A stretch of 64,000 nt of DNA from a virus. Below the pieces are notes generated by a model. That model saw only the letters and a list, made by a program, of their open reading frames with translations, was not told where the DNA came from and ran no database searches. The translations under genes and the position numbers were made by a program. The stretch lies in IMG/VR virus record IMGVR_UViG_3300036828_000547, positions 14,661 to 78,660 of that record. The stretch is one strand, 5' to 3'. The number at the start of each line of letters is the position of its first letter. Within the stretch, counting starts at the first letter, position 1. Of the stretch, positions 7,021-51,508 are shown piece by piece.

Positions 7021-7041
7021 CTAGGAAATCGGAGAAAAGTA

Positions 7042-7611: not shown

Positions 7612-7742
7612 TTCAATCTTGTTTGTCGTGGTTGGTGGACGAAGGATTCAAAGCATTCTTCGATCAATTTGAAATGTCGTGGCCGCATAACTCCCGGTTA
7701 GAGTGGCAGCAGCGATATATGATTGCTATGTGGAAAGCTTGA

Positions 7743-28473: not shown

Positions 28474-30474
28474 TTATTTCTTTAAGTCACCCCATGATTT
28501 ACCGATCTTAATGTCTGTTAACATTGGGATAGTAATAGATGGCACTGCTTTCTCCATTATCTCTGCACAGAGCTTGGCATGAGCTTGGTTACTGAAACTA
28601 AAGCATAATTCATCATGAACTTGCAACAGTGGTGTGAATCCTGCGTTATGAACATTAACCATCGCTTTCTTAATTTGTCGTGCAGCATCCCCTTGTATTT
28701 TTCGATTGAATGATTTGTGTGTGAATGAGCGTCTAAGCGCACTGTTATGCCACGGATGTTCTGGATCATTAACTCGTTGTAGAGCTTCTTCATGTGAGCA
28801 TGAAAATGTATCAATCTGCTTATTTGGGTATCTCTCTTGATACCAACTGATATCAAAATTACGATATTCTGCTGGTTCCCACAAATTAAAATGACTTCGT
28901 GCTCCATCTATTAATTCAATATACCCTTGTCGTTTTGCCATCCATGTATACTCATTATAGGCTTGACGAACAAATGGTAGTCTTTCATCATACTGTTTTA
29001 ATGTAGATTCAGCCTCAGTTTCATCCATACCAGTCATCAAGGCAAACTTTCCAACACCGGCTCCATAACTGACTGCGAAGTTAACATCCTTGGCTCGTCT
29101 GCGCTCTAGACGAGTTATGGATGCTACATAATCATGAAAATCAGTATTAGGATCATTGCGATACATATCCGCAGCTTGTTTCGCACCCCTCGCCCGTAAC
29201 TTTTCAGCGACATAAACGATAAGCCGATATTCCTGTTGCCGGTAGTCAATGCTGCACCATTCCTCACCATCCTCAGGTTCAAAGCAAGATCGTATGAGCG
29301 GAGCCCACTCTTCATCCCGGCTAGGCATTTGTTGAAGTGGTGGATCAGAATAACTAAAGCGATGACTTCTTGCGCCACCACTTTCACTTCTAAATTGATT
29401 AACTGTTGGATAAACACGACCTTTATGGGCATATTCACAAATATAGCCTAACAGAAACTTTTCTGCCAGTTCTGTATCATGTTTAATCTTGTGTATAAGC
29501 CGAGGAAATTCTTCCTTATAGCTTTCCATCACTTCCTTACTGAAACTCGGATTGCCGCGTGCAGTTCGGAAGATTAAAATACCTCTTTTTTGAAACTGTT
29601 CAGAGAGCCATTGACTCTTACGTATTTCTTTGATTGTAACTTTATTACCTGTTTCCCTACTGAGCTCATTTAGTTTAACTTCACAATTTGCCGATATACT
29701 CTTAGCTAATTTCCTAGCTCTATCTGTATTGACTTTCACCCCACGTTGTTTCATCTTCAGCGTGATAGGAAGTAAATCACGTTCGATTTGATATGCCTCG
29801 TCTAAGTATTCTGCTGATAACTGTGGCCGCAGCTTTTGAGCCAGACCCAATGTGCTCATTGCATCTTGTTCGGAATACGGTCCTACATATCTACCCGGTA
29901 AACGCCACAGACCCGCTTTTCCGGTGGCTGAATAAGCCAATCCGGCTAAGTTTAATAATGATTCATCTTTACCGGGTAGTCCTTGCCATTGACATAGATT
30001 CTCTAGGCTAAATGAAAATTGGTTTTCATCTAGCATGGCGGCCATTGCTCCCGTGTCATCTAATAATTTGGGTGGCTCCAAACCAAAGGTGGCTTGAATC
30101 CATCCCCAATCGTATTGAAAATGATGGAATATAAATCGTGTTTGATTTTGTGCTCTAAGACACTTGAGCCAATCATAAACCTTATTATGATCAAAGCATT
30201 TTGTTTCTGGATGGCGTAAAGGGATATAGATTGATTGATCTCGCCATGCAGCAGATATTCCACAAATGTAACCAGTTCTTAAATTAGTTCGTTCATATTG
30301 GTGAAATCCAGGACCTAGGTCTTTGGCTAAAAGATCGTCACGAGTCTCTGTATCAATGGCTACCTCAGTTTCCCGGCTAAGGTCAGGAAGCTGTTCTGGA
30401 GATTGCCAGTCACTATCAGGTGTAAATAAGGGAAGTTGATCTGGTGAGGGTTTTCCCTTGCTTATTTTTGCCAT
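28474..30474 (-). CDS. polA: DNA polymerase, family A (with 3'-5' exonuclease)
   Basis: DTET exonuclease motif; motif A DYRQQEYR; motif B RRRAKDVNFAVSYG; motif C VHDEL. Confidence 0.92.
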   Translation of the reverse strand: MAKISKGKPSPDQLPLFTPDSDWQSPEQLPDLSRETEVAIDTETRDDLLAKDLGPGFHQYERTNLRTGYICGISAAWRDQSIYIPLRHPETKCFDHNKVYDWLKCLRAQNQTRFIFHHFQYDWGWIQATFGLEPPKLLDDTGAMAAMLDENQFSFSLENLCQWQGLPGKDESLLNLAGLAYSATGKAGLWRLPGRYVGPYSEQDAMSTLGLAQKLRPQLSAEYLDEAYQIERDLLPITLKMKQRGVKVNTDRARKLAKSISANCEVKLNELSRETGNKVTIKEIRKSQWLSEQFQKRGILIFRTARGNPSFSKEVMESYKEEFPRLIHKIKHDTELAEKFLLGYICEYAHKGRVYPTVNQFRSESGGARSHRFSYSDPPLQQMPSRDEEWAPLIRSCFEPEDGEEWCSIDYRQQEYRLIVYVAEKLRARGAKQAADMYRNDPNTDFHDYVASITRLERRRAKDVNFAVSYGAGVGKFALMTGMDETEAESTLKQYDERLPFVRQAYNEYTWMAKRQGYIELIDGARSHFNLWEPAEYRNFDISWYQERYPNKQIDTFSCSHEEALQRVNDPEHPWHNSALRRSFTHKSFNRKIQGDAARQIKKAMVNVHNAGFTPLLQVHDELCFSFSNQAHAKLCAEIMEKAVPSITIPMLTDIKIGKSWGDLKK

Positions 30475-31855: not shown

Positions 31856-32683
31856 TTAGTTTTCCTGTTTGCGGAATGGAGTTTCCACGTCGCACATAGG
31901 CGCATCAACCTGACTAAGTCTCTTGTGACCTAGCATCCTTTCTGCCAATATCTGACCCCACTTTTTTATCCCTTTAAATTCAATTGCCAGTCGTTGTTTG
32001 GCAACTTCATCCATTTGGTCTACGTACAGTGACAATTGGAACAACTCGTGACAATGTTGATTTACTTCTCTTATATGTTCATAAAACCTTTGCTTGGCGT
32101 TATCTGGCATCCGTCCAATCGGAACATCATCCTCTACAACAATCCAAGCTTTATACCCTTCTTTTTCATTCAATTGTTGAAGCATTTCTCTTTCAGCCAA
32201 TTGATGTTTGCTTAGAACCGGGGGTTGTGGTATAGTGGGTCCAGGAAAAGTTTTTTCAGCTATTTCCACAGCATGTTTACGCGGCCCGCGTAAACATACA
32301 TCTTGGTTACGTGGAATTGGTTGTTCACGTAACCCAGATTCTACCAAAAAAGGGATTGTTTCTTCTCGCCAAATGTGTTGCCAAGAAGCAAGGTGAGTAC
32401 GTATTAACACCTCTTTAGCTTTTTCCCTATACTTAGGATTTCCCATATTAATAAGGGAACTTCGATCTTGATGACTTATTACAGTTTTACCATATCCTTG
32501 TTCTGTTAGCCATTGCCCAAAAGATTTATCGGCACTGTGACCTTGACCAAGGTTCTCACGTGCTTCCCACAGAGTTACCGCAAGCTCCATAGTTCCATCA
32601 ACCCAATCAACTGTGACTTTTTTCCAGGCTTGGTCTAAACGTTCCTTATACATCTGTATTCTCCTAAAGAAAAGGCCGCACAT
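31856..32683 (-). CDS. Hypothetical protein
   Basis: Long ORF; likely start MYKERL near 32653 (AGGAG RBS). Confidence 0.6.
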   Translation of the reverse strand: MCGLFFRRIQMYKERLDQAWKKVTVDWVDGTMELAVTLWEARENLGQGHSADKSFGQWLTEQGYGKTVISHQDRSSLINMGNPKYREKAKEVLIRTHLASWQHIWREETIPFLVESGLREQPIPRNQDVCLRGPRKHAVEIAEKTFPGPTIPQPPVLSKHQLAEREMLQQLNEKEGYKAWIVVEDDVPIGRMPDNAKQRFYEHIREVNQHCHELFQLSLYVDQMDEVAKQRLAIEFKGIKKWGQILAERMLGHKRLSQVDAPMCDVETPFRKQEN

Positions 32684-32704
32684 AATAATACCATGTGCGG
32701 CCTT
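32668..32704 (-). terminator. Intrinsic terminator
   Basis: AAGGCCGCACAT/ATGTGCGGCCTT 12-bp stem with a U-tract on the minus strand. Confidence 0.65.
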
Positions 32705-32720: not shown

Positions 32721-33335
32721 TTATGCTGTTTTTCTGTAATAACCTTCCACAGCCCATCGTGACTTTGGTAGCCCATTCTGAGCAGCTTTTTGTCCCGGGA
32801 CACTGATTGGTTTCACAATCGGTTTGGTTTCTACTACTTCCTTATTATTATTTTCAGCTTTTGGAGCTTCCTTAATATCATTCTCAGCTTTTGAAAGAAT
32901 CTGACTTACTAAAGTAGCTTTAGGAGGTCCAGGCCTAAACTTTTCTACTCGTCTCGATGACTTACGTTGCCGATTCTTCTGTTTACCTGAACGAAAGTGA
33001 ATGGAAATTACTGTGGGGTGAACATCGCTCCTATTTATGTCGAACATATTTGCTAAGTCCCATGCTTCTTCTGACATGTAGAACTCAAGTTCCCATTTTT
33101 CATCACCAAAGTCTATCCATACATAGATATGATTGCCAGCTACTTCAGCTCTATAACAAGACTCAATGGCAGAATGAAGTGCCCGAACAAAGGCACAATT
33201 CCGCTTATCTCCAGGAATAGCATCGTCTATATTTTCTTGGGAAACATAGATTGTAATGCGTCTTCCTGGAGTTAGACCTAGCAAATCTTTTGCTGTATAA
33301 CGAACAAAAGACGTAGCTGTATCTAGGCTTGACAT
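32721..33335 (-). CDS. Hypothetical protein
   Basis: 204 aa, AAGGAGGA RBS. Confidence 0.65.
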   Translation of the reverse strand: MSSLDTATSFVRYTAKDLLGLTPGRRITIYVSQENIDDAIPGDKRNCAFVRALHSAIESCYRAEVAGNHIYVWIDFGDEKWELEFYMSEEAWDLANMFDINRSDVHPTVISIHFRSGKQKNRQRKSSRRVEKFRPGPPKATLVSQILSKAENDIKEAPKAENNNKEVVETKPIVKPISVPGQKAAQNGLPKSRWAVEGYYRKTA

Positions 33336-33438: not shown

Positions 33439-33873
33439 TTAGTCTTCCATTCTTGAGTGATGACCTCCATCTTCCGGTGTCCCAGGTCTATTCTGCTCTT
33501 CTGTAGCCAGAGCAAGGATTTTTGTAAGAATCTGGTGAGCACCTTTCAGTGCCCTTTCATTTTGGTATGTACACAGTATGAATAAATATCGCTGCTCTAA
33601 TTGGCTTAGATTGTTTGCTTCTGCGAACCGGTTAAGCTCCATGTCTATCTCAACATTGTTTCGCTTAACATCGTAAGTTGCAACCTCAATCAATTTATCT
33701 AGATAATGCATTGCTTTCTGTAGATCTTGGACTCCAAGTTTCTTACGCCATCTAGCAACATGCTTGGTCGTACATCCCTCTAGGTAGCCTAGAGGGATTT
33801 TCACGCATAGATCCCAATGTTGGTATGATGTCTGATAATGATTTCCACCAACTTGACTTTCATTCGCTGGCAT
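33439..33873 (-). CDS. DUF3310 protein (T7 gp1.7-like nucleotide kinase family)
   Basis: QVGGNHYQ...KHVARWRKK.G.QDLQKA.HY; start reassigned to MPANESQ. Confidence 0.75.
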   Translation of the reverse strand: MPANESQVGGNHYQTSYQHWDLCVKIPLGYLEGCTTKHVARWRKKLGVQDLQKAMHYLDKLIEVATYDVKRNNVEIDMELNRFAEANNLSQLEQRYLFILCTYQNERALKGAHQILTKILALATEEQNRPGTPEDGGHHSRMED

Positions 33874-34465
33874 TTGGTTTCTCCCATTTCTCAATAAACC
33901 ACCAGTCTTCTTCCATTCCATACACAAAGGCTGTAGGACACTGTCTAAAAAATAACTTCAACCTAAGCGCGACATATCCTGCTAAACGAGGGCTGGGTGA
34001 GCTTTCATACACAGATTTGAGACATCTGTTGGCAATAATAAATCCATGATTATTGCCTATTGTGACTTGATCTAAACCAAACTCTGCCATTTCTACAAGT
34101 TCAATCTGTTTAAAGAATGCCTTATCAGTATCTGATAAGACTGTTTGTCTAAAAGAATTCCAGTACTCCATCTGGGTAGCTTGAGATTTTAATTCTAAAA
34201 ATTCCATCTGTTCCTTTAGTACAGGATTATCCCGCTTAACCGGGTATGGAATATCTCCGGTAGAATGTTCTCCTATATCGTGGAACATAATATGCTGAAT
34301 CATGTGTAGATCTGGTGTATTTGTAATACTAAGATAGATTCGTAAGATCTGCCAGCAGTGTTCTGCGACAGACTGCTGACCCACAATCGGCCAAGTGTGG
34401 TATCTACGAATCTGACCAGCTAATCGGATATCTAGACGTACACATTCATCATCATTTTCTGACAT
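33860..34465 (-). CDS. HD-domain hydrolase (YfbR-like 5'-deoxynucleotidase)
   Basis: RRYHT, QSVAEH, FHDIGEHSTGDIPYPVK; start reassigned to MSENDD. Confidence 0.75.
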   Translation of the reverse strand: MSENDDECVRLDIRLAGQIRRYHTWPIVGQQSVAEHCWQILRIYLSITNTPDLHMIQHIMFHDIGEHSTGDIPYPVKRDNPVLKEQMEFLELKSQATQMEYWNSFRQTVLSDTDKAFFKQIELVEMAEFGLDQVTIGNNHGFIIANRCLKSVYESSPSPRLAGYVALRLKLFFRQCPTAFVYGMEEDWWFIEKWEKPNASE

Positions 34466-35471
34466 TGCGCCTCTCCAACCATTCACGACCAGCTTGTTTC
34501 CAGTCTGGAGCAGATACTGCTTCAACAACATCTAAAGCGTCTACCATCTTTCCATTTTTATATAGGTGATGTGCCATAGCCATTCTGAGGACTACTTCAC
34601 GTAAAAACGTATTCGAAATATTTCCATCGTATATTTGCAGATCACCATGATGCATCGCATCTACAAAGGCCATGATCTCTAATAGTTCTTCATCGAACAC
34701 TAGAGGACGCTCTATCAATGGTAATTTCGGGCCATAGACACTGGTATCTAAAAGATGGTAGTCTAATCTATCATTGATCATGTCTTTATTTAGACGCTTC
34801 TGTAAAAGTTCAATATGGTCCGTATACAAATGTAGATTAGTTGTAATCTGCCAATACTCACCAATATCAACACCAATTCTACTGGCAAGATACTCTTGTA
34901 AGATTGGAAAATGGACTGCATTCGCACCACAACATCCCCACATCAAATCGTTAGAACGATTAAATACTACCATGTTTAGTTTACGATCCATAATCCTGAA
35001 TGTGACAACAAGATTACATGGCACGGCAGAATAAGCTCTTAAGTCATCTCTACCTGCTCCCCACATTTGTAGAACCATTTGCCGGGTGGAGGGATTCTTC
35101 CGAAGCTGGTTGACGATATTATCCAACTGGTTGTATCCTAGACCATATCTCCATCTTTGCCCATAGGCATCCATCACAATACCATTGGTCGCAAACATCT
35201 TACTAAAATATGAAATGTAATTATCCAGGAATGCCCCGTCATCCCTCCCGGCTAACATCCACATGGCTTCCATTAAATGGAAGAATGGATTGGCATCTCG
35301 GACCGGGTTTAATAAGACATGTTCTTTGGGATATGTATAACGGATTGTAACGGGCTCAGGAAATACCAGTGCTTTTCCAATTCTGGTATCTTCTTCTACG
35401 CCATGGTCTAGAAGAAGTCCTACAGCCGCTGGAAAAGCATCACGGAGATTATTAGCATTGATGACGTGCAT
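34452..35471 (-). CDS. Thymidylate synthase homologue, probable dUMP hydroxymethylase
   Basis: Catalytic PCN; NRSNDLMWG...NAVHF with the Asn associated with dUMP specificity; NLHLY; adjacent 5hmdU kinase-like gene. Confidence 0.75.
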   Translation of the reverse strand: MHVINANNLRDAFPAAVGLLLDHGVEEDTRIGKALVFPEPVTIRYTYPKEHVLLNPVRDANPFFHLMEAMWMLAGRDDGAFLDNYISYFSKMFATNGIVMDAYGQRWRYGLGYNQLDNIVNQLRKNPSTRQMVLQMWGAGRDDLRAYSAVPCNLVVTFRIMDRKLNMVVFNRSNDLMWGCCGANAVHFPILQEYLASRIGVDIGEYWQITTNLHLYTDHIELLQKRLNKDMINDRLDYHLLDTSVYGPKLPLIERPLVFDEELLEIMAFVDAMHHGDLQIYDGNISNTFLREVVLRMAMAHHLYKNGKMVDALDVVEAVSAPDWKQAGREWLERRNVRK

Positions 35472-36300
35472 GTTTGCCCTCCTCATATGCTTTTTGCCAT
35501 TGAACCATTACATCAGAACGCTCTTCCATGTCCTTCCAGACTGACCCAGCAGTTTTGGTAACAAGAGTCACATATTCAGGGTGATACTGTTGAAGTTGTT
35601 TTGCGGCTTGTGTCTGCATCTCTTCAGTCCGATATTTACTACATCCACCTTTCGCACCACTGCCACGTTGATTCCAAACGTATTGATATGATACACGGTT
35701 TGGATAACCTTTACGCAAGAGTTGCAATGTCAGGTCAAAATCTTCCATAACCGGGATACGGCCAAACTCGACGCCTAACTCCTGCAATGCCTGAACATCA
35801 TAAGCGTAGGCATTCATCATGCGGGTAACATCACGATACGGTTCTGGGCCTAAGAAATGATTGCTACCTTGCCGTGCGGCGAGGCCAATATGAACAAATC
35901 CTTCTGCCAGCCATTGTTCAAGTCGTAGAAACATAGCCTCTAAACGTTTAGAATCTTTTATTGTTTCAAGAGCAGGATCACTCATGATAGGTCTATAACA
36001 AAAATCCATGTCATCATCTAACATCAATATATGCCGTTCTCCACGGGATGCAGCATACTCTGTCATAATCCATTTGCGGGTGTGCGAAATGCCATAATGT
36101 TCATTAGGCACGTAAGCATCTGTTAACTTTAACATCGGATTCTCATCTCTTATAAAGTTAATATTGTTGATATAACTAATCCGTTCATTTCTGGGAATGC
36201 ACAGCACAACCTCACGCTGTGACTTCATATCAATGAAATTACGCACTGTCACCTGTTCTTTCCAGTGCCCTCTACCACTGCTAGGAATGCAGATTAACAT
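35452..36300 (-). CDS. GT-A glycosyltransferase (TET/JBP-associated, DNA-base glycosyltransferase-like)
   Basis: IPSSGR, TRKWI, MLDDDMDF, EDFDLTLQLL..G, GGCS..R motifs. Confidence 0.7.
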   Translation of the reverse strand: MLICIPSSGRGHWKEQVTVRNFIDMKSQREVVLCIPRNERISYINNINFIRDENPMLKLTDAYVPNEHYGISHTRKWIMTEYAASRGERHILMLDDDMDFCYRPIMSDPALETIKDSKRLEAMFLRLEQWLAEGFVHIGLAARQGSNHFLGPEPYRDVTRMMNAYAYDVQALQELGVEFGRIPVMEDFDLTLQLLRKGYPNRVSYQYVWNQRGSGAKGGCSKYRTEEMQTQAAKQLQQYHPEYVTLVTKTAGSVWKDMEERSDVMVQWQKAYEEGKHARHQC

Positions 36301-36310
36301 ACCTCTCTCC

Positions 36311-37207
36311 TTAGATATGACGGAACACCTGCCTTGGACGACCTATACCTAACCGAGTCTTTTCATACTTGCTAAACTCACAACAATGGTTTTGTGTATC
36401 CTGACAATGGAATGGCCCTAGATCCTTTAGTGCTTCGTTTTCTCGCAGATTTAAACATTGAATTTCGACTTGCCACTCTTTCTCATTCCAATGTGTAGCC
36501 ATAAATCGATTGAGTACAGCGTTCAGACCTTTCTGGCTACCCGGTCCCGGTGCCGCCCATGTCCACCAGTCCTCAACTTCACGCATGAATGGCAAATATT
36601 TCAGGTCTGCTACAAGTTGAGCAGCCATGAATGGACCTAGTCCATTACAGTCTTCACGAAGCCAATCGTACATCTGTTGTAGTGTTGGCGGGGTCTCCAG
36701 TAACCATTCTTTCCATTGCTCCTCCCATGGCTTCTTACACCATTCATGGAAGTAACAGACAACCCCGACACCCTTATCGTGACCCGGCTTTCCATTTATA
36801 ATGAATGCTCCTGTCACATGTGGCGTTGGAATCTTTTCTAAGCACTCAAGCAAAATTCTTATATCTCTATTGCCATCAATGTATCGTTCGAATACTGATT
36901 TCCCCCCAAAGTCTGGTTCATTAAATAAAGCATCACAAGTTGATATCCTATTGAACCACCGATAAAGGACTGTTGCCGGGAGAACCCACGCATCGTCTTG
37001 GGTGTAGGGGTTACGTATGGTTTTCTGATAATGCAGAGAAGTACGGTCTCGTTCCCGGTAAATATCTGTGAAGCGATAAAACTGTAAGATTCTATCTTCT
37101 GTCCAAGGCCAAGGCTCGCCACCAGTCTTTCTATGATATATCTCATTTCTCTCGCGGATGAACGCGATATACCGATCGAATGGGTCTTCGATGTCAGTGA
37201 TACTCAT
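36311..37207 (-). CDS. 5-hydroxymethyluracil DNA kinase-like protein (aGPT-Pplase1 family)
   Basis: PWPWTEDRIL..YRFT...RE.DR, YRWFNR, GLGPFMAAQLVADL, PGPGS..GL, CEFSKY. Confidence 0.8.
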   Translation of the reverse strand: MSITDIEDPFDRYIAFIRERNEIYHRKTGGEPWPWTEDRILQFYRFTDIYRERDRTSLHYQKTIRNPYTQDDAWVLPATVLYRWFNRISTCDALFNEPDFGGKSVFERYIDGNRDIRILLECLEKIPTPHVTGAFIINGKPGHDKGVGVVCYFHEWCKKPWEEQWKEWLLETPPTLQQMYDWLREDCNGLGPFMAAQLVADLKYLPFMREVEDWWTWAAPGPGSQKGLNAVLNRFMATHWNEKEWQVEIQCLNLRENEALKDLGPFHCQDTQNHCCEFSKYEKTRLGIGRPRQVFRHI

Positions 37208-38763
37208 TCGAACAGCCTCTCAAAGTGATATCGTCTATCTGGATGTACAAGGATAAGATCTTGATATGTCCTAGTCACACCGGTATAGAAAACCCTTGTT
37301 TCTTCGTCCATATTACCAGTCCCAAATCTTTCTGCTGCCTTGGCAGTATCTGAGAGCAAGATGACCTTGTCAGCTTGCCCTCCCTTAACGCGATGGATAG
37401 TAGAAATATGTACTGAAGGAATCTGTAAAAGTGAGTTGCCATTATTCAAAACCTTTTCTATATATTCAACATCTCTTTGTTCTATTTCTACAAAAGCTTC
37501 TTGCCATGTTCCCTGAGCCAGTAGGCCATAATCTCGTCTTAATTCGTGTAGTGTAACATCAATTGTTTCACTTTGTCCAGCTAGACGTTTCAATCTAGCT
37601 TTATGACCATAAGCAACTCCCGGTTTTTTCTTACTTGGGTTTCCTTCACCTGGAAGTAGCTCATAAATTTTGAGAGCATCGGTCGCTGGTATAGTCTTAC
37701 CTTCGTGTAGATCAACCCAAGCTGTGATTGCTCTGGCATAGGTTGGTTTGATACTATTAGCATCAAAATAACGATATAGAATACCTTGACTACGGCAATA
37801 TGGAATGAACTTCCGTCGTAATGATTTTACAGTACGCCCCAGCATCATCACACTCTTGCCAGAGTCTAAGATACTTGGGTCTAATTGTGATATGCCCTCT
37901 AATGTACTGCAACTACCCTCGGCTGATCGAGGGAGCCAATGCTTTTCACGGCGATTGTAGATTTTACTAATCATACGATTAGCTAACTGATGAACAGTTG
38001 TTGGAACCCTATAGCTTTGTTTGAGAACAGTGACTTGACCGGGTAACGAAATAAACCGCGTACTCGCTCCGGCCCAAGTAAAGATTGTTTGGTCATCATC
38101 ACCAGCCACGTACATTCGTTTAACGAATCTTGCTAATTGTTCAACCATCAACCATTGCAACTCACTCAAATCTTGTGCTTCATCAACAATAAGAACTTCT
38201 AGGCGTGGTGGGTCATCTATTTTAATAAACTCTTCTAGCATATCAGTAAAATCAAGCAATTGTCGCTCTGTTTTATATTGCCTGAACTCTTTGATTATTC
38301 GTTGTGCGCGCTCAAAATCTGGTACAATAAAATCATTCTGTAACAATACAGCATCTACTGATTGTCGGGTAATACGGGCAAAGTTTTCAAAGAATAAAAC
38401 TAAATCATCTCCATAGAAATTCGTATAAGTACCATCGTCAGATGATAAGCTGCCACGAATCTCGTATCCATACTCTTCACCAAACTCCTGCACTTTTCTA
38501 CCGGTAAAAACCTGATTAGTGTTGAGACCTAGTTGTCTGAACGCTGCTGAGTGCAGTGTGTTGAAATACCGAAACCGGCTGCGGGGTAGCTGAAATCGTT
38601 CACTCGCACGAGTGATGGCTTCCTCTACACCGCGCTTTGTGAATGTCATGAACCCTATGTGATCTGGTGGGATACCGCGGTCCATTTCCATGTCCACGGT
38701 ATCCAACAGAGTTGTGGTTTTCCCGGTGCCGGGGGGACCGACGAATATGGTGGGTTTTATCAC
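37204..38763 (-). CDS. UvrD/Rep-like superfamily 1 helicase
   Basis: GPPGTGKT, VDEAQD, GDDDQTIF.W.GA, QSYR, STIHRVKG, YTGVTR. Confidence 0.9.
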   Translation of the reverse strand: MIKPTIFVGPPGTGKTTTLLDTVDMEMDRGIPPDHIGFMTFTKRGVEEAITRASERFQLPRSRFRYFNTLHSAAFRQLGLNTNQVFTGRKVQEFGEEYGYEIRGSLSSDDGTYTNFYGDDLVLFFENFARITRQSVDAVLLQNDFIVPDFERAQRIIKEFRQYKTERQLLDFTDMLEEFIKIDDPPRLEVLIVDEAQDLSELQWLMVEQLARFVKRMYVAGDDDQTIFTWAGASTRFISLPGQVTVLKQSYRVPTTVHQLANRMISKIYNRREKHWLPRSAEGSCSTLEGISQLDPSILDSGKSVMMLGRTVKSLRRKFIPYCRSQGILYRYFDANSIKPTYARAITAWVDLHEGKTIPATDALKIYELLPGEGNPSKKKPGVAYGHKARLKRLAGQSETIDVTLHELRRDYGLLAQGTWQEAFVEIEQRDVEYIEKVLNNGNSLLQIPSVHISTIHRVKGGQADKVILLSDTAKAAERFGTGNMDEETRVFYTGVTRTYQDLILVHPDRRYHFERLFE

Positions 38764-38947: not shown

Positions 38948-39718
38948 TTAGAATGGAATATCTTCACCTTTTCCACCATCGATGGGTGCTTCAGCTTTCT
39001 TTTCACCCTCTGCGATTGCATTGCTGAATGCTATACAAGCTTTTATCTCTTCAACTGTAGATTTACCGACATCTTCAAACTTGAGGCCGAACCATTTTCC
39101 CTTGACGTTGCTTTGTGGAACAGTCGAAAGACGATATTTGTGTGCAAAAGCTGGCATGATTTTGCCGGTTGTCGGGTGCTTAAACCGGTGGAACATGGTC
39201 TGCCATTGACGTGCGAATGTGTGTTTTGTTGAACTGCATGGGAATACATATGGATCCCCATCAACTATGAGATAAAATTCTCTAGTGTCTACAATGAAAT
39301 TTCCATTCCCACGTACCATGACTTCTCGTTCCTTGCCATCATCACCGATTATTGTCTTAGCAACCATATCCATTGGTGGACTATCATGACGAGTTACAAA
39401 CCCACCTCGGTTAGGAAGCCATTCAATCCATGTACGGAACATTTCAACAGGAATAGCCTCAATTCCTTCTTCACCGTTACGAATAGGGTCGAGGGAATTG
39501 CGTAACCAGAAGTCCCCAGCCTCTGCGCCTTCAATATAGTTATCCCCGCGTTTCTCTACTTGAGGCGACAATGCTTGTAGAACGTAGATCAAAGGTACAA
39601 GCTGATCTTCTGCCTTGAAGCTTACGCCCCTCTCAGCATACTGTTCTGTGAGGGAAAGGTACTCATCCTGCTCGGCAGGAAGTTGTGTTTCTACTGTTTT
39701 TAGCGCCTTATCTGCCAT
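38948..39718 (-). CDS. Putative ssDNA-binding protein
   Basis: 256 aa, acidic C-terminal tail ending EDIPF; replication context; AGGAGGAG RBS. Confidence 0.6.
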   Translation of the reverse strand: MADKALKTVETQLPAEQDEYLSLTEQYAERGVSFKAEDQLVPLIYVLQALSPQVEKRGDNYIEGAEAGDFWLRNSLDPIRNGEEGIEAIPVEMFRTWIEWLPNRGGFVTRHDSPPMDMVAKTIIGDDGKEREVMVRGNGNFIVDTREFYLIVDGDPYVFPCSSTKHTFARQWQTMFHRFKHPTTGKIMPAFAHKYRLSTVPQSNVKGKWFGLKFEDVGKSTVEEIKACIAFSNAIAEGEKKAEAPIDGGKGEDIPF

Positions 39719-40148: not shown

Positions 40149-40706
40149 TTATTTGATCTTAATCTCATCAAACACAAATACTCCTAGAAGGTCCATAGGA
40201 ATTTGATGTCCTTTGAGTATCTCGGATTTTACAAACGCCTTCAATGTCATGTGATGTACAGACTCGTTTGTGTAGTATTGGACTTTGGCATCACTCAATA
40301 TTTTCATAACTCGTAAACGCTCTTCATGCTCCTGCATTCCGAAGAAGATATTAATGACTGACTTGACCAAGTCACCATGGTCATTCTGCTCTAACCATTC
40401 AAATGCTGCTTGGCGCTTGTCTTCAGGAATCTTTGCATTGTAAACCGTCCCTCGTTCGGCTACGAATGCTGGATGGTTCCCCGTCGCCTCTACGGTAACA
40501 CTGGAAATACGAGCTTGAGTAAACATTTCCGGCAGTTCTTCGCGCTCGATTTTCTTAATGTTGTTTTCTACGAGCTTAACTTGATTCTCCAGATCAGTTT
40601 TCTTGAGGTACGCATCACGCAATTCTGAAGCACGCTTCCGAATTGTGTTGAGGTCCACCGGCTTTTCGTAGCCTTCGAGAAGGTCTAATGCTTCTTGATC
40701 AGTCAT
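40149..40706 (-). CDS. Conserved phage replication-module protein
   Basis: Coiled-coil, then AFEWL...HGDLVK and VHHMTLKAFVK; start reassigned to MTDQE. Confidence 0.55.
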   Translation of the reverse strand: MTDQEALDLLEGYEKPVDLNTIRKRASELRDAYLKKTDLENQVKLVENNIKKIEREELPEMFTQARISSVTVEATGNHPAFVAERGTVYNAKIPEDKRQAAFEWLEQNDHGDLVKSVINIFFGMQEHEERLRVMKILSDAKVQYYTNESVHHMTLKAFVKSEILKGHQIPMDLLGVFVFDEIKIK

Positions 40707-40888
40707 TGGGTTGCTCCTGATAGAAAAGATGCGTGGGTTTGCTTTGCAACATTGCATCGCTTCTGGTGTCCTTGGACCGACTACGACATTGCCCTCTAAC
40801 TAGAAACGGCAGGACACCTTTCATTTGAGCAGAGCCTACTTCTGGCTTTGCCGAATCCGACGCCCACGCTCGCCGAACAGGTTACTTT

Positions 40889-48198: not shown

Positions 48199-50177
48199 AT
48201 GGATAGGGAAGGACTAGGCAAGCTTGAATTGCTTGTTAATGAGTATGGACTAACCGGTGTGTTGTCAGGGCTTTCATATATTTGTGGTGAGAAATCGCAG
48301 CACATTGCAGCACACTGGCAAGATGAGGATTTGTCCAATTTGTGGATGGGCCATGCGGCCAGATTGGACAGGGTGGCAGCTCGCATAGAAAGCAGGGGAA
48401 ATGGAAGACTTGGTGAAACGAAACAATGATCGACTGAAACTGCTCAATGACTTAGAGGAAGCACTAGAGCGGTTCAATGCACTAGAGGCATATCTTAACA
48501 TAGATACAAGTGAAGATAGGGCCGAACTACGCATGGTTATGATGCGTATTCAAAAATGGCGAGGGGTTGGGGAGCATTAGCTCCCCTTCTTGCTTTTAAT
48601 CAAGGGGAAACAATGGTCGCAAGTCATACAACTGTAGAGCAGATTGTTAAGATTATGCTCAAGTACATGAATAAAAAGGATGCTCTTCGAATGGCAAGGG
48701 AAATCCACAACCACGTCAAGGGCAATCAAAGCGTGACCCATACATTCCATAGGATTGTACAGGAACTTGTGGAAATGGATGGGGATTTAGTAAGTGTGAT
48801 CAATCGAGTAATAAATAGGGAGAGTGGTGAGTATGAGTAGAAACATATTTGGGTGGTCTCTACCTCCCGGTGTTACCAACAAGATGATCGACGAGGCTGC
48901 TGGAATGGACCAGCCTTGTGCGGTCTGTTGTATGGATGTCGCAGACTGCTGTTGTCCAGAGTGTCCGAACTGCGGGGAGCAGGGAAATCCAAAGTGTTAC
49001 AAGGAACATGGGCTCAAGCTCAATAAAGAACAGGTTACTAACCGGGTGAACTGTCGTATCTTTCAGCTAAATCTACAAATTGCTGATGAACAGCAATATC
49101 TTGGATACCTCGCAATAACAGGGCAAACGGAATGGGATATAAGCGAAACTCGAGATCCTTTTGGTTAGGAGGGTACAATGAAATGGAAGAAGCGCCTAGA
49201 GGAATTAATTAGACTACGCGCCAAGCATGGCCGGGATAGGCACTTGGCACGAAGCTTCCCCAACCTCAAGGTGGAGCAGCGTACCGCGCCCACATCAGAC
49301 AGGATGGGTCCTCCGCCATTGCTGAGTAAAGAACAGCTAACAGCGATCCTTGGGCCAAACTTTGTTATCAGTCACTTACACAAGTCTGGATATCAGGTGC
49401 TACTGAAGGACGAAGCACCGTACTTTGGGAAGAAGCCATAGCGTGACTCTATACAACCTTAAATCGACACCAGACGGCTACCGGATGGTTAAGTTCGATG
49501 ATTATCTGAACGTCGAAGCTGTATATGAAATACTGTTCCGACGTGGCAGGTTCTATTGCGATTGTCCACAAGGCCAGAAAGCACCGACTTGTAAGCATAG
49601 GGATATGGTCCCTGTATTCTGTAGTAAGAGAGCAGTCAACAGCGGGAGGTTTTATTGTCAAGAAACTGGGGAGTGGGAATCGAAGATAGAATGCTAAAAC
49701 GAGCCTATATCCAGATCCCATATGCAGAGCTATCCAAACTTCTGTTTGGTGATAGTGGAATTGCTATCTTTCGGGTGGAAAAAGATGTCCCGGGGCCTAA
49801 TGGATACATCGAGTTTATCGCCTACGGCAGTCATAATTCTAATATCGAGCGTGGGGCAACTTATCGTTTAGAAGTTGGCAACAAGGTGAAGAAATTACAT
49901 GATTAGAAAACATGACTACAGATACGACGTGGATTACACCCGGCAAGTGGTATTGCCGATACGAGATATGTACGATAAGGGGGAAATTTACTGTCAGGTC
50001 ATTGTATATGGCTGGACAACCAAAGAAGCTCTTATAATACCGGGAGGGAGCGACCCTTTCCTCCATGCGGTTAAACGACTTGGGTTAGATCCAGTTCGAT
50101 ATCAAGCCGTAATATGGGATATCAATCTGACACCACGAGATAAACTAAGGAATGAGATCTTCAAAGGATTAACATAA
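48199..50177 (+). CDS. Operon of small hypothetical genes including a SWIM Zn-finger (49425-49697) and a Cys-rich ORF (48824-49168)
   Basis: YCDCPQ....TCKH SWIM pattern; upstream promoter TTGCCA-17-TAAAGT. Confidence 0.5.
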
Positions 50178-50203
50178 TTCTCTGCTAGTTGCTACCAATC
50201 TGC

Positions 50204-50240
50204 TTGCGCTTCATGTTACTGTATTGGTAAAGTAATGTGC
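50204..50240 (+). promoter_or_regulatory. Promoter with overlapping GTAAAG operator-like motif, upstream of the repeat-array operon
   Basis: TTGCGC-18-TAAAGT; GTAAAGTAATGTGC; shares AATCTGCTTGCGCTTC with the promoter at 52663-52705. Confidence 0.55.
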
Positions 50241-50344
50241 AATTAGGGCTAAGGAGCTTCTAATAGCGGCCGGTGGTGATTAGGATAGAGCGTGGCTAAT
50301 TCCTTATGGTCACCACCGGTTTCCATTTGCAACGGGGGATACTG

Positions 50345-50575
50345 ATGGCTATTCGGGTAGGCTCAGGTAAAAAGATTCCACAGGTAAGGTGTCTAAACTG
50401 TGCCGACCCGTTTAGTTCAGTGTCTAACGTAGAGGGTGAAGCAGCTCCATGTGAAGGAGCATACGTGGTCTGCTCTAAGTGTGGGCATATCATGGGCTTC
50501 GATAAGTCCCTCCAGCTTCGCAGCCTAGACAATGCTGATCTCCAACTTATAGCTAGAAGGTTAAGAAATAAATGA
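50345..50575 (+). CDS. Zn-ribbon protein
   Basis: CLNC...CSKC; GGGGA RBS before MAIRVG; its stop abuts the array. Confidence 0.55.
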   Translation: MAIRVGSGKKIPQVRCLNCADPFSSVSNVEGEAAPCEGAYVVCSKCGHIMGFDKSLQLRSLDNADLQLIARRLRNK

Positions 50576-51480
50576 TCAGCGTGGCGTGGCGTGGTCCAGC
50601 GTGGCTCGGTCCGGTGTGGCACGGTTTGGCTGGGCAAGGCACGGCTTGGCAGAGCTCGGCAAGTCAAGTCAGGGCTTGGCGTGGCTCGGCGGGGCGGGGC
50701 GAGGCACGGCTAGTCATGGCTAGGCACGGCTTGGCGAGGCACGGTTTGGCTGGGCAAGTCTGGGCACGGCTAGTCATGGTTAGGCTTGTCATGGCGTGTC
50801 CCGGCTAGGCGTGTCCCGGCTAGGCATGGCGAAGCGAGGCGTGTCCCGGCTAGGCGAGGCAAGGCTGGGCTCGGCACGGCTAGCCAGAGCGAGGCGAGGT
50901 ATGACGTGGCTAGACATATTATCTAGCTTCGCCATGGCTCTAGGCGCGGCAAGACTCGGTCCGGCGTGTCATGGCAGGGCTAGGCGAGGCAAGGCCCGGT
51001 CCGGTGAGGCATGGCGTGGCGGGTCGGGGCGAGGCGAGGCAAGGCAGGTCTGGGCGAGGCACGGCAGGTCTAGGCTCGGCAAGGCAGGTCTGGGTTCGGC
51101 GTGGCATGGTGAGGCGAGGCAAGGCAGGTCTAGGCTCGGCTCGGCTCGGTCTGGCATGTCTTGGCTAGGCGCGGCATGTCTTGGCTAGGCTTGGCAAGGC
51201 GCGGCTTGGTCTGGCTTGGCTCGGTGGGGCGTGGCAAGACGTGGCAAGACGTGGCAAGGCGAGGCGGGGTATGGCGAGGCTTGGTGCGTCTAGGCGAGGC
51301 GAGGCGTGGCTCGGCTCGGCATGGCAGAGCAAGGCGCGGCGAAGCGCGGCAAGGCTCGGCTGGGCGCGGCGTGGCAGGGTATGGCGAGGCTTGGTGCGTC
51401 AAGGCGTGGCTCAGCGTGGCTAGGCTCGGTCTGGCATGGCAAGACTAGGCAGGGCTCGGCAGGTCCAGGCAAGGCATGGT
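50576..51480 (+). repeat. Pentameric (NN-GGY)n array, probable non-coding guide-like RNA
   Basis: Two blocks in one unbroken 5-nt register: 50576-50915 (68 units) and 50941-51480 (108 units). By hand count about 141 of 176 triplets are GGC/GGT; the rest are single-substitution variants (GTC, AGC, GAC, GCC). The dinucleotides are highly variable. Confidence 0.9.
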
Positions 51481-51508
51481 AAAACTCTTTTAACAGAAAG
51501 GATAAAAA

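What the first reader, a model, noticed from the sequence alone, without database searches (positions are those of the whole stretch)
33439..37207. Thymidine hypermodification cluster pairing a 5hmdU DNA kinase-like gene with a glycosyltransferase
Seen: contiguous genes for a 5hmdU-kinase-like protein, a GT-A glycosyltransferase, a thymidylate synthase homologue with the dUMP-type Asn, an HD nucleotidase and DUF3310. Established: in phages such as ViI, M6, phiW-14 and SP10, hmdU in DNA is phosphorylated by this kinase family and then substituted by an amino acid or amine transferase; related GT-A enzymes glucosylate hmU to base J in kinetoplastids. I found no amino acid:DNA transferase (aGPT-Pplase2) gene in the window. 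Inference: the DNA may carry a glycosylated or phospho-glycosylated hmU, possibly an uncharacterised base.
Basis: partly seen in the sequence, partly recalled or inferred. Interest (0 to 1): 0.7.

Follow-up and report, generated by a model that had tools for sequence, protein, structure and literature searches.

The report
Kinase-free sugar-on-thymine phage DNA operon
An uncultured soil phage carries a compact operon that most likely swaps thymine for hydroxymethyluracil in its DNA and then hangs a single sugar on it, but the gene read as a "DNA kinase" is not a kinase, so the phospho-sugar idea does not hold.

Summary
The "5hmdU-kinase-like" gene is only the PF18723 protein (formerly aGPT-Pplase clade 1). 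It has a helix-hairpin-helix DNA-glycosylase fold and no P-loop. The validated kinases (M6 gp54, PaMx11 gp49) are a separate P-loop family. That family is absent from the whole genome, as is the amino acid:DNA transferase.

The thymidylate synthase homologue belongs with the dUMP hydroxymethylases (Asn, not Asp). The glycosyltransferase is an intact GT-A of the TAGT family with a DDD motif.

In 83 related loci, PF18723 sits beside either a glycosyltransferase (51 loci) or the P-loop kinase (22), never both. The partner has switched several times on the PF18723 tree.

Best reading: the phage makes 5hmdU DNA before replication and O-glycosylates it afterwards without a kinase, giving a base-J-like product. 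This is the minimal one-sugar version. PF18723 keeps an invariant Cys/Asp set shared with the transferase family, so it is probably an enzyme, but its reaction is unknown.

No DNA product has been reported. This scan has already found the same class on at least 13 other genomes. Cultured PhiJL001 and phiRSL1 carry it and are testable.

The parts
37204..38763 (-). UvrD/Rep-type SF1 helicase, immediately upstream of the cluster. This is context; the position is syntenic in relatives and in PaMx11.
   Evidence: PF00580 8e-25 and phrog_1967 4e-64. It holds the only credible Walker A in the genome (GPPGTGKT). It is conserved upstream of hel in L005-L028.
36311..37207 (-). PF18723 protein ('HMUDK_hel', formerly aGPT-Pplase clade 1; called hel in this report). 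It has an HhH DNA-glycosylase fold and is a paralogue of the amino acid:DNA transferase. It is not a kinase.
   Evidence: PF18723 1.2e-38. The AF2 model has pLDDT 91.7. The top 25 VIA-align hits are all HhH glycosylases, DUF2419 or PaMx11 gp46, at Z 10.3-5.3, then a drop to 4.4. D201, D213, C276, E277 and K280 are invariant in 81 homologues. There is no Walker A.
35452..36300 (-). GT-A glycosyltransferase of the TAGT family, the same family as T2/T6 beta-glucosyl-HMC-alpha-glucosyltransferase. It is the predicted 5hmdU-DNA glycosyltransferase.
   Evidence: PF20691 8.3e-15 and phrog_842 2e-40. The AF2 model has pLDDT 93. It has a GT-A fold (SpsA, TarP/TarS, GalNAc-T) and matches TAGT models in BFVD. 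DDD95-97, R10, H137, R143 and D187 are invariant.
34452..35486 (-). Thymidylate-synthase-family enzyme of the dUMP hydroxymethylase clade.
   Evidence: PF00303 2.8e-26 and phrog_5131 1e-92. PaMx11 gp51 matches at 1.5e-76. The nearest cultured homologues all come from thymidine-hypermodifying phages. It has the catalytic PCN Cys, Asn at the N177 position, and a C-terminal extension of about 100 aa shared with the SP10 dUMP hydroxymethylase.
33860..34531 (-). HD-domain phosphohydrolase, YfbR-like 5'-deoxynucleotidase type. It probably remodels the pyrimidine pool (dTMP/dTTP or dUTP). The true start is probably at Met23.
   Evidence: PF12917 9.4e-8 and PF13023 2e-7. PaMx11 gp52 matches at 1.1e-13. 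The H...H...HD...D motif is visible in the translation.
33439..33927 (-). DUF3310-related protein, homologue of PaMx11 gp53. It is a possible T7 gp1.7-type nucleotide kinase. The true start is probably at Met18.
   Evidence: DUF3310 E 0.0042, below cut-off. phrog_5839 2.4e-31 and phrog_236 'nucleotide kinase' 3.6e-12. PaMx11 gp53 1.4e-17. The T7 gp1.7 kinase carries DUF3310 at residues 122-184, but the direct BLASTP to gp1.7 is not significant.
32672..32704 (-). Terminator-like hairpin (15 pairs followed by a T-rich tail) that probably closes the operon, one gene after the DUF3310 gene.
   Evidence: Consensus scan only.
28474..30474 (-). Family A DNA polymerase with a 3'-5' exonuclease domain. 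It is the replicase that would have to accept 5hmdUTP. This is context.
   Evidence: PF00476 8e-44 and phrog_17 5e-97.

Best explanation
This is a kinase-free thymidine hypermodification operon in its minimal form.

Before replication (inferred):
- The TS-family enzyme converts dUMP to 5-hydroxymethyl-dUMP.
- The HD phosphohydrolase, and possibly the DUF3310 protein (a candidate gp1.7-like nucleotide kinase), bias the pool towards 5hmdUTP.
- The phage PolA incorporates 5hmdUTP in place of dTTP.

After replication (inferred):
- The single TAGT-family GT-A enzyme transfers one sugar from a host nucleotide sugar directly onto the 5-hydroxymethyl oxygen of 5hmdU in DNA.
- The product is a 5-(glycosyloxymethyl)uracil, a base-J-like nucleotide.
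- There is no phosphorylated intermediate, because the genome has no 5hmdU DNA kinase and no amino acid:DNA transferase.

Role of the PF18723 protein (weakest step, inferred):
- It is a base-flipping paralogue of the amino acid:DNA transferase with an HhH glycosylase fold.
- It keeps that family's Cys and the HhH Asp.
- It works on hmU-derived DNA together with whichever enzyme decorates the hydroxymethyl group: the kinase in M6-type phages, the glycosyltransferase here.
- It could present the flipped base to that enzyme, or it could catalyse a further, still unknown, Cys-dependent step.

Shown here: the gene identities, the folds, the conserved residues, the absence of the kinase and the transferase, and the comparative pattern. 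Inferred: every chemical step.
For: Gene identities rest.

The TS homologue is dUMP-type and groups with the hydroxymethylases:
- It has Asn where the dCMP enzymes have Asp, a PCN motif, and the C-terminal extension shared with the SP10 dUMP hydroxymethylase.
- Its best cultured hits are PaMx11-like (41%), YuA-like (38%), phiRSL1 (37%), SP10 (33%) and ViI-like phages. True T-even td enzymes score only about 22%.

The GT is intact and of the right type:
- It has a GT-A fold, an invariant DDD motif and TAGT family membership.
- Phage GTs found with TET act on 5hmC in DNA, using UDP-Glc or UDP-GlcNAc (PMC8256090).

The kinase and transferase are absent from the complete genome (CheckV 100%):
- Searches found neither.
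- The PF18748 search found the kinase in its positive controls.
- A Pfam scan of the other 94 ORFs found no other GT, kinase, methyltransferase, deaminase or dioxygenase.

Comparative pattern across 83 loci:
- hel-TS-HD-DUF3310 is a conserved core.
- A TAGT GT is present in 44 loci (45 with the window), a GT-B or a divergent TAGT in 7, the P-loop kinase with or without ADDT in 22, and both never.
- The GT lies within 200 nt of hel in 40 of 45 loci.
- Whole genomes of PhiJL001, phiRSL1, MW202897 and two complete relatives also lack PF18748.
- hel is absent from SPO1, which has plain hmU, and from a T4-like phage.
Against: - No chemistry has been measured for any member of this class.
[quoted passage not shown] That argues against dense bulky modification, at least in that phage.
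- The characterised phage enzymes of the TAGT family that I could read about act on 5hmC or on glucosyl-5hmC, not on 5hmU.
- Hydroxymethylase rather than methylase activity of the TS homologue rests on homology only.
- The role of PF18723 is unknown. Its M6 homologue gp55 was dispensable in vitro (PMC8989533).
- The sugar and its anomeric configuration cannot be predicted.
Confidence: 0.55

Rival explanations
1. The PF18723 protein phosphorylates 5hmdU in DNA, and the glycosyltransferase then builds a phospho-glycosylated base or displaces the phosphate.
For: Pfam names the family '5-hmdU DNA kinase, helical domain'. In SP10 the domain is fused to the kinase in one 653-aa frame. SP-15-type phages do carry phospho-sugars on a thymine derivative (PMC12686479).
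Against: The protein has an HhH glycosylase fold with no P-loop and no nucleotide-binding fold. PF18748 is absent from the whole genome, and that search found the kinase in its positive controls. The validated kinases are the separate P-loop proteins (PMC8989533). The GT and the kinase never co-occur in 83 loci.
Confidence: 0.04
2. Sparse or no glycosylation. The DNA carries mostly plain 5hmdU (or T), and the GT modifies only a small sequence-specific subset, or modifies another acceptor altogether (a protein, or a nucleotide).
For: PhiJL001 DNA is reported to be cut normally by restriction enzymes (PMC4276943). In M6, ViI and PhiW-14 only part of the thymidines are hypermodified (PMC8989533, PMC5889632). 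The GT's acceptor has not been tested.
Against: The GT is adjacent to hel and to the dUMP hydroxymethylase in 40 of 45 loci, inside replication modules. It belongs to a family whose characterised phage members act on DNA bases (PMC8256090). The model is a soluble globular GT-A. Relatives add further sugar-tailoring genes at the same spot.
Confidence: 0.22
3. PF18723 is the true group-transfer enzyme. By analogy with the amino acid:DNA transferase, its Cys attacks C6 and an activating group leaves the exocyclic methylene. That group would be the glycoside made by the GT here, and the phosphate in kinase-type phages. The final base would then be something other than a simple O-glycoside, for example thymine or a C- or N-linked adduct.
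For: Cys276-Glu277, Asp213 and Asp201 are invariant in all 81 homologues, whatever the partner. The alignment with ADDT is collinear and places C276 on the catalytic C247 of gp46. The fold matches gp46 at Z 9.3 over 220 residues. The ADDT profile weakly hits the PhiJL001 hel. hel is tied to an 'activating' enzyme in nearly every locus and is absent from SPO1.
Against: A glycoside is a poor leaving group. M6 gp55 added nothing detectable in lysate reconstitutions (PMC8989533). The sequence link to ADDT is statistically weak (E 0.05-0.5). No donor or cofactor is suggested by the sequence.
Confidence: 0.12
4. Ordinary nucleotide metabolism. The TS homologue makes dTMP, the DNA is canonical, and the GT and PF18723 genes are unrelated passengers.
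For: Many records annotate these genes simply as 'thymidylate synthase'.
Against: The enzyme clusters with dUMP hydroxymethylases of phages with proven hmU-derived bases, and scores only about 22% identity to true phage TS. The gene order is conserved with modification genes in 83 loci. PF18723 occurs in hypermodifying phages and not in SPO1 or T4-like genomes.
Confidence: 0.05

Closest known systems
Thymidine hypermodification clusters of Pseudomonas phages PaMx11 and M6/YuA (also ViI, PhiW-14, SP10, SH-Ab 15599): dUMP hydroxymethylase, then P-loop 5-HMUDK, then amino acid/amine:DNA transferase (PMC5889632, PMC8989533, PMC11472151, PMC13458397)
   Same: The gene order is syntenic with PaMx11: uvrD ... 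PF18723 (gp50) - TS homologue (gp51) - HD (gp52) - DUF3310 (gp53) ... PolA. The predicted pre-replicative supply of 5hmdU is the same, and a PF18723 gene is present.
   Different: There is no P-loop kinase, no ADDT/aGPT-Pplase2, and no PLP, radical SAM, FAD or acetyltransferase tailoring genes. A GT-A glycosyltransferase sits where the kinase sits. The predicted product is an O-glycoside, not an amino-acid-derived adduct.
T-even phage hydroxymethylcytosine glucosylation (gp42 dCMP hydroxymethylase plus DNA glucosyltransferases; T2/T6 beta-glucosyl-HMC-alpha-glucosyltransferase)
   Same: The logic is the same: a TS-family hydroxymethylase before replication and a DNA glycosyltransferase after it. 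The window's GT is in the same PHROG and structural family as the T2/T6 enzyme. In T4-like Kha5h that GT gene abuts gene 42.
   Different: The base is uracil, not cytosine: Asn here against Asp in gp42. The first sugar in T4 is added by GT-B enzymes. T-even phages have no PF18723 gene.
Base J (beta-D-glucosyl-hydroxymethyluracil) of kinetoplastids, made by JBP1/2 and a glucosyltransferase
   Same: The predicted product is of the same chemical class, a sugar on the hydroxymethyl group of hmU in DNA. From memory, the J glucosyltransferase is said to belong to the same GT-A/TAGT group. I could not check this with the tools.
   Different: In kinetoplastids hmU is made in DNA by a Fe/2OG dioxygenase acting on T. 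This genome has no TET/JBP domain and makes hmU at the nucleotide level.
Phage TET/5mYOX-associated glycosyltransferase pathways (PMC8256090; bioRxiv 10.1101/2023.12.21.572611, later Cell Rep 2024)
   Same: The GT family is the same (PF20691). The preprint already reports that many GT-A contigs lie next to a thymidylate-synthase homologue, with secondary GTs and APH-like genes.
   Different: Those characterised pathways start from C5-methylated cytosine oxidised in DNA. The papers I read do not mention PF18723/aGPT-Pplase, hmU as acceptor, or any product for the TS-linked clusters.
Cultured phages with the same gene set: PhiJL001 (gp19-gp26) and Ralstonia jumbo phage phiRSL1 (ORF228-238)
   Same: PhiJL001 has PF18723, TAGT, TS homologue, HD and DUF3310, and no kinase. 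phiRSL1 has PF18723 (ORF231), three TAGTs and the TS homologue.
   Different: PhiJL001 adds an Nmad5 protein. phiRSL1 adds a sulfotransferase, an APS kinase and nucleotide-sugar enzymes. The window has one GT and nothing else. I found no report of the DNA product of either phage.
Sugar-bearing thymine derivatives of SP-15, YerA41 and Carin-5 (PMC12686479, PMC5977210)
   Same: These are also oligosaccharide or phospho-sugar decoration of a thymine replacement in phage DNA.
   Different: They have a dihydroxypentyl-type carbon linker, different glycosyltransferases and a UDG-PolA type polymerase. No PF18723/TAGT core is described for them.

Membership tests
[quoted passage not shown] | P-loop (Walker A) kinase domain matching PF18748 or the validated kinases | tested here: not met
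   No Walker A in the 298-aa protein or in any credible ORF other than the helicase. PF18748 gave no hit in the genome, and the same search found SP10, MP1412, Sonora and PaMx11. phmmer --max with two kinases gave nothing.
PF18723 HMUDK_hel (formerly aGPT-Pplase clade 1) | Full-length match to the family profile above the curated cut-off | tested here: met
   133.6 bits against a cut-off of 25, covering profile positions 4-274 of 281. 35% identity-level homology to PaMx11 gp50 (2.1e-35). JGI names for close homologues carry both the old and the new family name.
Amino acid:DNA transferase (AADT/ADDT, aGPT-Pplase2, PF18724) | Match to PF18724 | tested here: not met
   No hit in the whole genome. 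phmmer with PaMx11 gp46 and Sonora ADDT gave no hit.
Amino acid:DNA transferase (AADT/ADDT, aGPT-Pplase2, PF18724) | Catalytic Cys (gp46 C247) and HhH Asp in equivalent positions of the PF18723 protein (paralogy, not membership) | tested here: inconclusive
   The fold matches gp46 at Z 9.3, rmsd 4.5, 220 residues aligned. hhalign places C276 on C247 and D201 on D153, but with E only 0.05-0.5. No coordinates were available for a superposition.
HhH (HhH-GPD) DNA glycosylase superfamily | Two-lobed helical fold with a helix-hairpin-helix motif | tested here: met
   The top 25 VIA-align hits are all from this superfamily or its derivatives: Tm Ogg Z 10.3, Mag1 9.7, EndoIII 8.5, AlkA, MutY, AGOG. 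There is a clear drop to Z 4.4 afterwards. The GLG hairpin at 189-191 is conserved.
HhH (HhH-GPD) DNA glycosylase superfamily | N-glycosylase activity with a catalytic Asp about 20 residues after the hairpin | not testable with these tools
   An invariant Asp213 lies 22 residues after Gly191. Activity cannot be inferred from this: the paralogue gp46 is a transferase, not a glycosylase (PMC11472151).
TET-associated glycosyltransferase family (TAGT, PF20691; GT-A) | Profile match above the cut-off, GT-A fold and a DxD motif | tested here: met
   55.7 bits against a cut-off of 27.5. GT-A structural hits have probability 1.0. TAGT models in BFVD match with E down to 5.5e-30. DDD95-97 is invariant in 30 homologues.
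TET-associated glycosyltransferase family (TAGT, PF20691; GT-A) | Acceptor is a hydroxymethylpyrimidine in DNA | not testable with these tools
   Only context speaks for it: adjacency to hel and to the dUMP hydroxymethylase in 40 of 45 loci.
dUMP hydroxymethylase branch of the thymidylate synthase family | TS fold with the catalytic Cys, and Asn (uracil-specific) at the E. coli N177 position | tested here: met
   PF00303 2.8e-26. PCN Cys and GAN Asn are aligned with TS, whereas gp42, MilA and Xp12 have Asp.
dUMP hydroxymethylase branch of the thymidylate synthase family | Product is 5hmdUMP rather than dTMP | not testable with these tools
   Inferred from the closest homologues (PaMx11, YuA-like, SP10 'dUMP hydroxymethylase') and from the shared C-terminal extension.
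Base J pathway (JBP dioxygenase plus glucosyltransferase) | Fe/2OG TET/JBP thymine dioxygenase | tested here: not met
   No TET/JBP family appears among the Pfam hits of all 114 ORFs scanned.
DUF3310 / T7 gp1.7-type nucleotide kinase | Match to PF11753 and similarity to gp1.7 | tested here: inconclusive
   17.5 bits, below the cut-off of 24. phrog_236 'nucleotide kinase' 3.6e-12. gp1.7 itself has DUF3310 at 4.5e-23, but the pairwise BLASTP gives E 0.74.

The most novel reading that the evidence does not exclude
PF18723 may be an uncharacterised DNA-base enzyme. The family has about 4,700 clusters at 50% identity and is almost entirely viral. It would be a Cys-dependent paralogue of the amino acid:DNA transferase that acts on 5-hydroxymethyluracil derivatives, and it would be the common, obligatory partner of two alternative activating enzymes, a kinase or a glycosyltransferase. 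In GT-type phages like this one it would then either be needed for glycosylation in vivo, by flipping or selecting the base, or convert the glycoside into a further base not yet described. The phage DNA would carry base J or a new sugar-thymine, made without a dioxygenase and without a kinase.
Probability: 0.3. Interest if true: 0.8.

Novelty: new variant of a known kind. Interest (0 to 1): 0.6.

Why it matters
All thymidine hypermodification pathways solved so far go through phosphorylation of 5hmdU by a P-loop kinase. Sugar-decorated pyrimidines in phages are known mainly for cytosine.

A widespread kinase-free route that puts a sugar directly on hmU would add a bacterial-virus counterpart of base J. 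It would explain a large set of 'thymidylate synthase + glycosyltransferase' contigs already noticed in metaviromes. It would also supply new enzymes for labelling or protecting 5hmU in DNA.

This case also corrects a naming trap. 'HMUDK_hel' is read as a kinase, but it is a glycosylase-fold protein with a conserved Cys/Asp centre and no known reaction.

The one-GT cluster here is the simplest version and so the easiest to reconstitute. PhiJL001 and phiRSL1 are cultured, so the product can be measured directly.

Tried and rejected
- blastn of the cluster against 50,697 phage records found no match.
- My first guesses at Pfam accessions were wrong. PF18744 and PF18745 are SNAD1 and SNAD2, so those two searches say nothing.
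I took gene neighbourhoods from the search for related loci instead.
- Sequence searches of the PDB with hel and with the GT gave only chance-level hits.
- Foldseek of the hel model gave nothing at E <= 0.001. The fold became clear only with VIA-align.
- Global hhalign of hel against ADDT failed. The first profile comparison had probability 0.1%.
- BLASTP of the DUF3310 protein against T7 gp1.7 was not significant.
- Sequencing runs: one soil metagenome, probably the source sample, holds the DNA, and no RNA holder is listed. I did not use read laying, because contigs cannot show base modification.
- Iyer et al. 2013 (PMC3763556) and Lohr et al. 2005 (PMC1065128) are not held. The statement about restriction digestion of PhiJL001 is therefore second-hand.
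- A literature search linking JGT to TAGT found nothing.
- I considered that phiRSL1 ORF238 might be a hidden 5-HMUDK. It is an APS kinase (PF01583, 2.7e-15) that pairs with a sulfotransferase.
- Promoter-like sites are not above chance: 35 found against 28.6 +/- 5.3 expected.

Full report
**What is there.** The window is bases 14661-78660 of a 78,660-bp IMG/VR virus record that CheckV rates as complete. The finding covers five tightly packed, partly overlapping ORFs on the minus strand. Read in gene order:

- 36311-37207 matches PF18723 'HMUDK_hel' (E 1.2e-38).
- 35452-36300 matches PF20691 TAGT (8.3e-15) and phrog_842, the beta-glucosyl-HMC-alpha-glucosyltransferase family (2e-40).
- 34452-35486 matches thymidylate synthase (PF00303 2.8e-26; phrog_5131 1e-92).
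- 33860-34531 is a YfbR-like HD phosphohydrolase (9.4e-8).
- 33439-33927 is weakly DUF3310 (E 0.0042, below cut-off) but clearly phrog_5839 (2.4e-31).

Upstream lie a UvrD-type helicase and Pam3 gp33/gp34-like genes. Downstream lie two unknowns, a DUF3631 protein, PolA, an exonuclease and an SNF2 helicase. A strong terminator-like hairpin at 32704-32672 follows one gene after the DUF3310 gene.

**The 'kinase' is not a kinase.**

- In PaMx11 and in Stenotrophomonas phage Sonora, the P-loop kinase (PF18748 HMUDK_HMUD1) is a separate gene just upstream of the PF18723 gene. The amino acid:DNA transferase (PF18724 ADDT, formerly aGPT-Pplase2) is a third gene.
- The enzymes shown experimentally to phosphorylate 5hmdU in DNA are the P-loop proteins M6 gp54, PaMx11 gp49, ViI gp67/gp243, SP10 gp186 and PhiW-14 gp37 (PMC8989533, Table 1).
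- The window's protein is the homologue of PaMx11 gp50 (2.1e-35), which corresponds to M6 gp55. Lysate reactions without gp55 still made N-alpha-glycinylthymidine (PMC8989533, section 16).
- JGI names for close homologues show that PF18723 is the family formerly called 'alpha-glutamyl/putrescinyl thymine pyrophosphorylase clade 1'.
- In SP10, PF18748 and PF18723 lie in one 653-aa frame. This fusion probably explains the present Pfam name.

**Whole-genome absence of kinase and transferase.**

- PF18748, PF18724 and PF18746 give no hit in the 78.7-kb genome.
- The PF18748 search does find SP10, MP1412, Sonora and PaMx11, so the negative result means something.
- A Walker A scan of all six frames finds one credible motif, in the helicase.
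- phmmer --max with the PaMx11 and Sonora kinases, ADDTs, FAD enzyme and acetyltransferase finds nothing. The TS, HD, gp53 and gp50 homologues are found at 1e-13 to 1e-76.
- A Pfam scan of the remaining 94 ORFs yields only structural proteins, lysis enzymes, a NUDIX protein, an AEP primase and a sigma-70 region 4 match. There is no second glycosyltransferase, no nucleotide-sugar enzyme, and no methyltransferase, deaminase or dioxygenase.

**The TS homologue.**

- It has the catalytic Cys (VPCN).
- In the segment NRSNDLMWGCCGANAVHF it has Asn at the position of E. coli N177. The dCMP-specific enzymes (T4-type gp42, Xp12, and the CMP hydroxymethylase MilA) have Asp there.
- It shares a C-terminal extension of about 100 residues and the PCN motif with PaMx11 gp51, YuA-like MP1412, phiRSL1 ORF230, PhiJL001 gp24 and the SP10 dUMP hydroxymethylase.
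- Its best cultured relatives are all from phages with hmU-derived bases, at 31-41% identity. True T-even td enzymes are at about 22%.
- A dUMP hydroxymethylase is therefore the best call. This is by homology, not by test.

**The glycosyltransferase.** The AF2 model is confident (pLDDT 93). It matches GT-A enzymes (SpsA, TarP/TarS, GalNAc-T4, RmlT) and TAGT or T-even-type models in BFVD. Thirty homologues keep an invariant DDD (95-97) plus R10, H137, R143 and D187. The enzyme looks intact and metal- and NDP-sugar-dependent. Because the genome has no sugar-nucleotide genes, the donor must come from the host.

**The PF18723 protein (hel).**

- *Fold.* The AF2 model (pLDDT 91.7) gave only weak Foldseek hits. 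In an all-against-representatives VIA-align search, the top 25 hits are all HhH DNA glycosylases (Thermotoga Ogg Z 10.3, Mag1 9.7, EndoIII 8.5, AlkA, MutY, AGOG, MBD4), the queuine-salvage enzyme DUF2419 (9.5), or PaMx11 gp46, the glycine:DNA transferase (8z2m; Z 9.3, 220 residues). The next hit drops to Z 4.4.
- *Conserved residues.* Across 81 homologues, down to about 28% identity, these are invariant: R20, F46, R51, D54, R83, N86, F193, D201, D213, G221-P-G223, G227, C276, E277 and K280. They are equally invariant in kinase-linked and GT-linked members.
- *Link to the transferase.* Profile comparison with ADDT is statistically weak (E 0.05-0.5) but collinear over 203 columns. It puts the GLG hairpin and D201 on gp46 G144/D153, and C276 on gp46 C247. 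That Cys is proposed to attack the pyrimidine as in DNMT or TS enzymes (PMC11472151), and it is essential in the family (PMC13458397). The ADDT profile also weakly hits the PhiJL001 hel (E 7.8e-4).
- *Reading.* I take hel to be a probably active paralogue of the transferase. Its reaction is unknown.
- *Family size and fusions.* The family is large (4,657 representatives at 50% identity with E <= 1e-3) and mostly stand-alone. Longer forms are fused to PolA, primase-PolA, a RecA-type helicase, a C5 DNA methyltransferase, a ParB-like protein and P-loop kinases. None is fused to a GT. These partners point to action on DNA.

**Comparative genomics.** I collected 80 IMG/VR loci encoding a hel homologue, and added PaMx11, Sonora and PhiJL001. 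I marked each locus with phmmer and Pfam.

- hel-TS-HD-DUF3310 is a conserved core.
- Next to hel there is a TAGT-type GT in 44 loci plus the window, a GT-B or divergent TAGT in 7, or the P-loop kinase with or without ADDT in 22. The two never occur together. Eight loci show neither, and some of those are truncated.
- The GT lies within 200 nt of hel in 40 of 45 loci, and the kinase in 16 of 22.
- On a quick maximum-likelihood tree of hel (the careful search did not finish), the two classes are interspersed. Well-supported branches force at least five changes for GT and four for kinase. PhiJL001 (GT) is sister to PaMx11 (kinase) at 99% SH-aLRT. The rows include near-duplicates, so these counts are not independent events.
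- Complete genomes of PhiJL001, phiRSL1, MW202897 and two IMG/VR relatives (100% and 97% complete) also lack PF18748.
- hel is absent from SPO1, whose DNA carries plain hmU, and from a T4-like phage. This ties hel to further modification rather than to hmU synthesis, though it rests on a single plain-hmU genome.
- Close relatives insert more genes between the GT and the TS gene: a second TAGT, a transaldolase-family enzyme, MobA-like nucleotidyltransferases, an APH-like protein, and a radical SAM/SPASM enzyme.
- phiRSL1 has three TAGTs, a sulfotransferase, an APS kinase and nucleotide-sugar enzymes.
- The window's cluster, with one GT and nothing else, is the minimal version. Its nearest relatives L005, L006, L015, L016 and L027 have the same arrangement.

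**Mechanism proposed.**

- Before replication: dUMP goes to 5hmdUMP via the TS homologue. The HD enzyme, and perhaps the DUF3310 protein, bias the pool. PolA incorporates 5hmdUTP.
- After replication: the GT-A enzyme puts one sugar on the hydroxymethyl oxygen of 5hmdU in DNA, giving a base-J-like nucleotide with no phosphate intermediate.
- hel acts on the same flipped base, either presenting it or carrying out a further Cys-dependent step.

Only the gene identities, the folds, the conserved residues, the absences and the co-occurrence pattern are shown. All chemistry is inferred. I put 0.55 on 'virion DNA carries a glycosylated hmU' and about 0.9 on 'the 298-aa protein is not a kinase'.

**Evidence against, and rivals.**

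[quoted passage not shown] I could not read the original paper. If the statement holds, modification in that phage is sparse, absent or not bulky, and the 'sparse or other acceptor' rival stays at about 0.2.
- A rival in which hel is the true transferase and the sugar or phosphate is only an activating group gets about 0.12.
- The phospho-glycosyl route gets about 0.04.
- 'Plain TS' gets about 0.05.

**Comparison with the literature.** Burke et al. (PMC8256090) and Pyle et al. (bioRxiv 10.1101/2023.12.21.572611) characterised TET-linked GTs acting on 5hmC. They noted that many GT-A contigs lie next to a thymidylate-synthase homologue. The text I read does not mention PF18723 or aGPT-Pplase, hmU as the acceptor, or a product for these clusters. 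Searches for a glycosylated hmU in phages returned only kinetoplastid base J, the SP-15/YerA41/Carin-5 type, and the works above. I therefore class this as a new variant of a known kind.

**Earlier notes of this scan.** Another first-stage note on this same stretch already says 'no P-loop kinase'. Follow-ups on at least 13 other genomes describe the same kinase-free sugar-on-thymine class. My analysis was done before I read them and agrees with them. This report adds:

- the partner-switching tree;
- the residue set that is invariant in both contexts and aligned with the catalytic Cys of the transferase;
- the hel fusion partners;
- the SPO1 negative control and the PF18748 positive control;
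- the point that this genome holds the simplest, one-GT form.

Noticed in passing
window 50001-52000 (about 50565-51480): There is a local GC peak (0.565 against about 0.45). Overlapping short ORFs on the plus strand gave spurious Walker-A-like matches (GSVGRGKT and similar). Another first-stage note describes a pentamer (NN-GGY) repeat array at this place.
   Followed up: no
L088 (Ralstonia phage phiRSL1) 1716-11370: The same hel-TS core (ORF231 is hel, 1.1e-19; ORF230 is the TS homologue) is preceded by three TAGT glycosyltransferases, a galactose-3-O-sulfotransferase-like gene, an APS kinase (PF01583 2.7e-15) and two nucleotide-sugar enzymes. This is a candidate sulfated glycan on hmU in a cultured jumbo phage.
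   Followed up: partly
L010 9653-11816; L017 8919-10393; L007 2586-3596; L035 4673-6975: Close relatives insert sugar-tailoring genes between the GT and the TS homologue. These include a transaldolase/F6P-aldolase family enzyme (7e-35), MobA-like nucleotidyltransferases, a weak APH-like match, radical SAM/SPASM enzymes and GT-B enzymes. The same core therefore seems to build more elaborate adducts elsewhere.
   Followed up: partly
P0121-P0134: PF18723 is fused in single proteins to a C5 DNA methyltransferase, PolA, primase-PolA, a RecA-type helicase (PF13481), a ParB-like protein and thymidylate-kinase-like or PF18748 P-loop kinases.
   Followed up: no
window 38948-39718 and 40149-40757 (minus strand): Pam3 gp34-like (PF23977 1.4e-32) and Pam3 gp33-like (PF23984 1.1e-23) genes of unknown function sit upstream of the helicase. 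The gp34-like gene recurs upstream of hel in many related loci, and also in Sonora and PhiJL001.
   Followed up: no
L085 8318-9433 (genome bases before the window): A 371-aa protein with an N-terminal NUDIX box (PF00293 3.4e-16) lies among the structural genes. It could be a nucleotide-pool enzyme relevant to dTTP/dUTP exclusion, or it could be unrelated.
   Followed up: no
L003 (PhiJL001) 8184-8783 and L001 (Sonora) 6978-7688: An Nmad5 (PF18757) 'nucleotide modification associated domain 5' gene sits between hel or the GT and the TS homologue, in both a GT-type and a kinase-type phage. It is absent from the window.
   Followed up: no
window 32721-33335 and 31856-32683 (minus strand): Two ORFs of 204 and 275 aa directly downstream of the cluster have no Pfam or PHROG match and no homologue in any of the 80 related loci.
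   Followed up: partly
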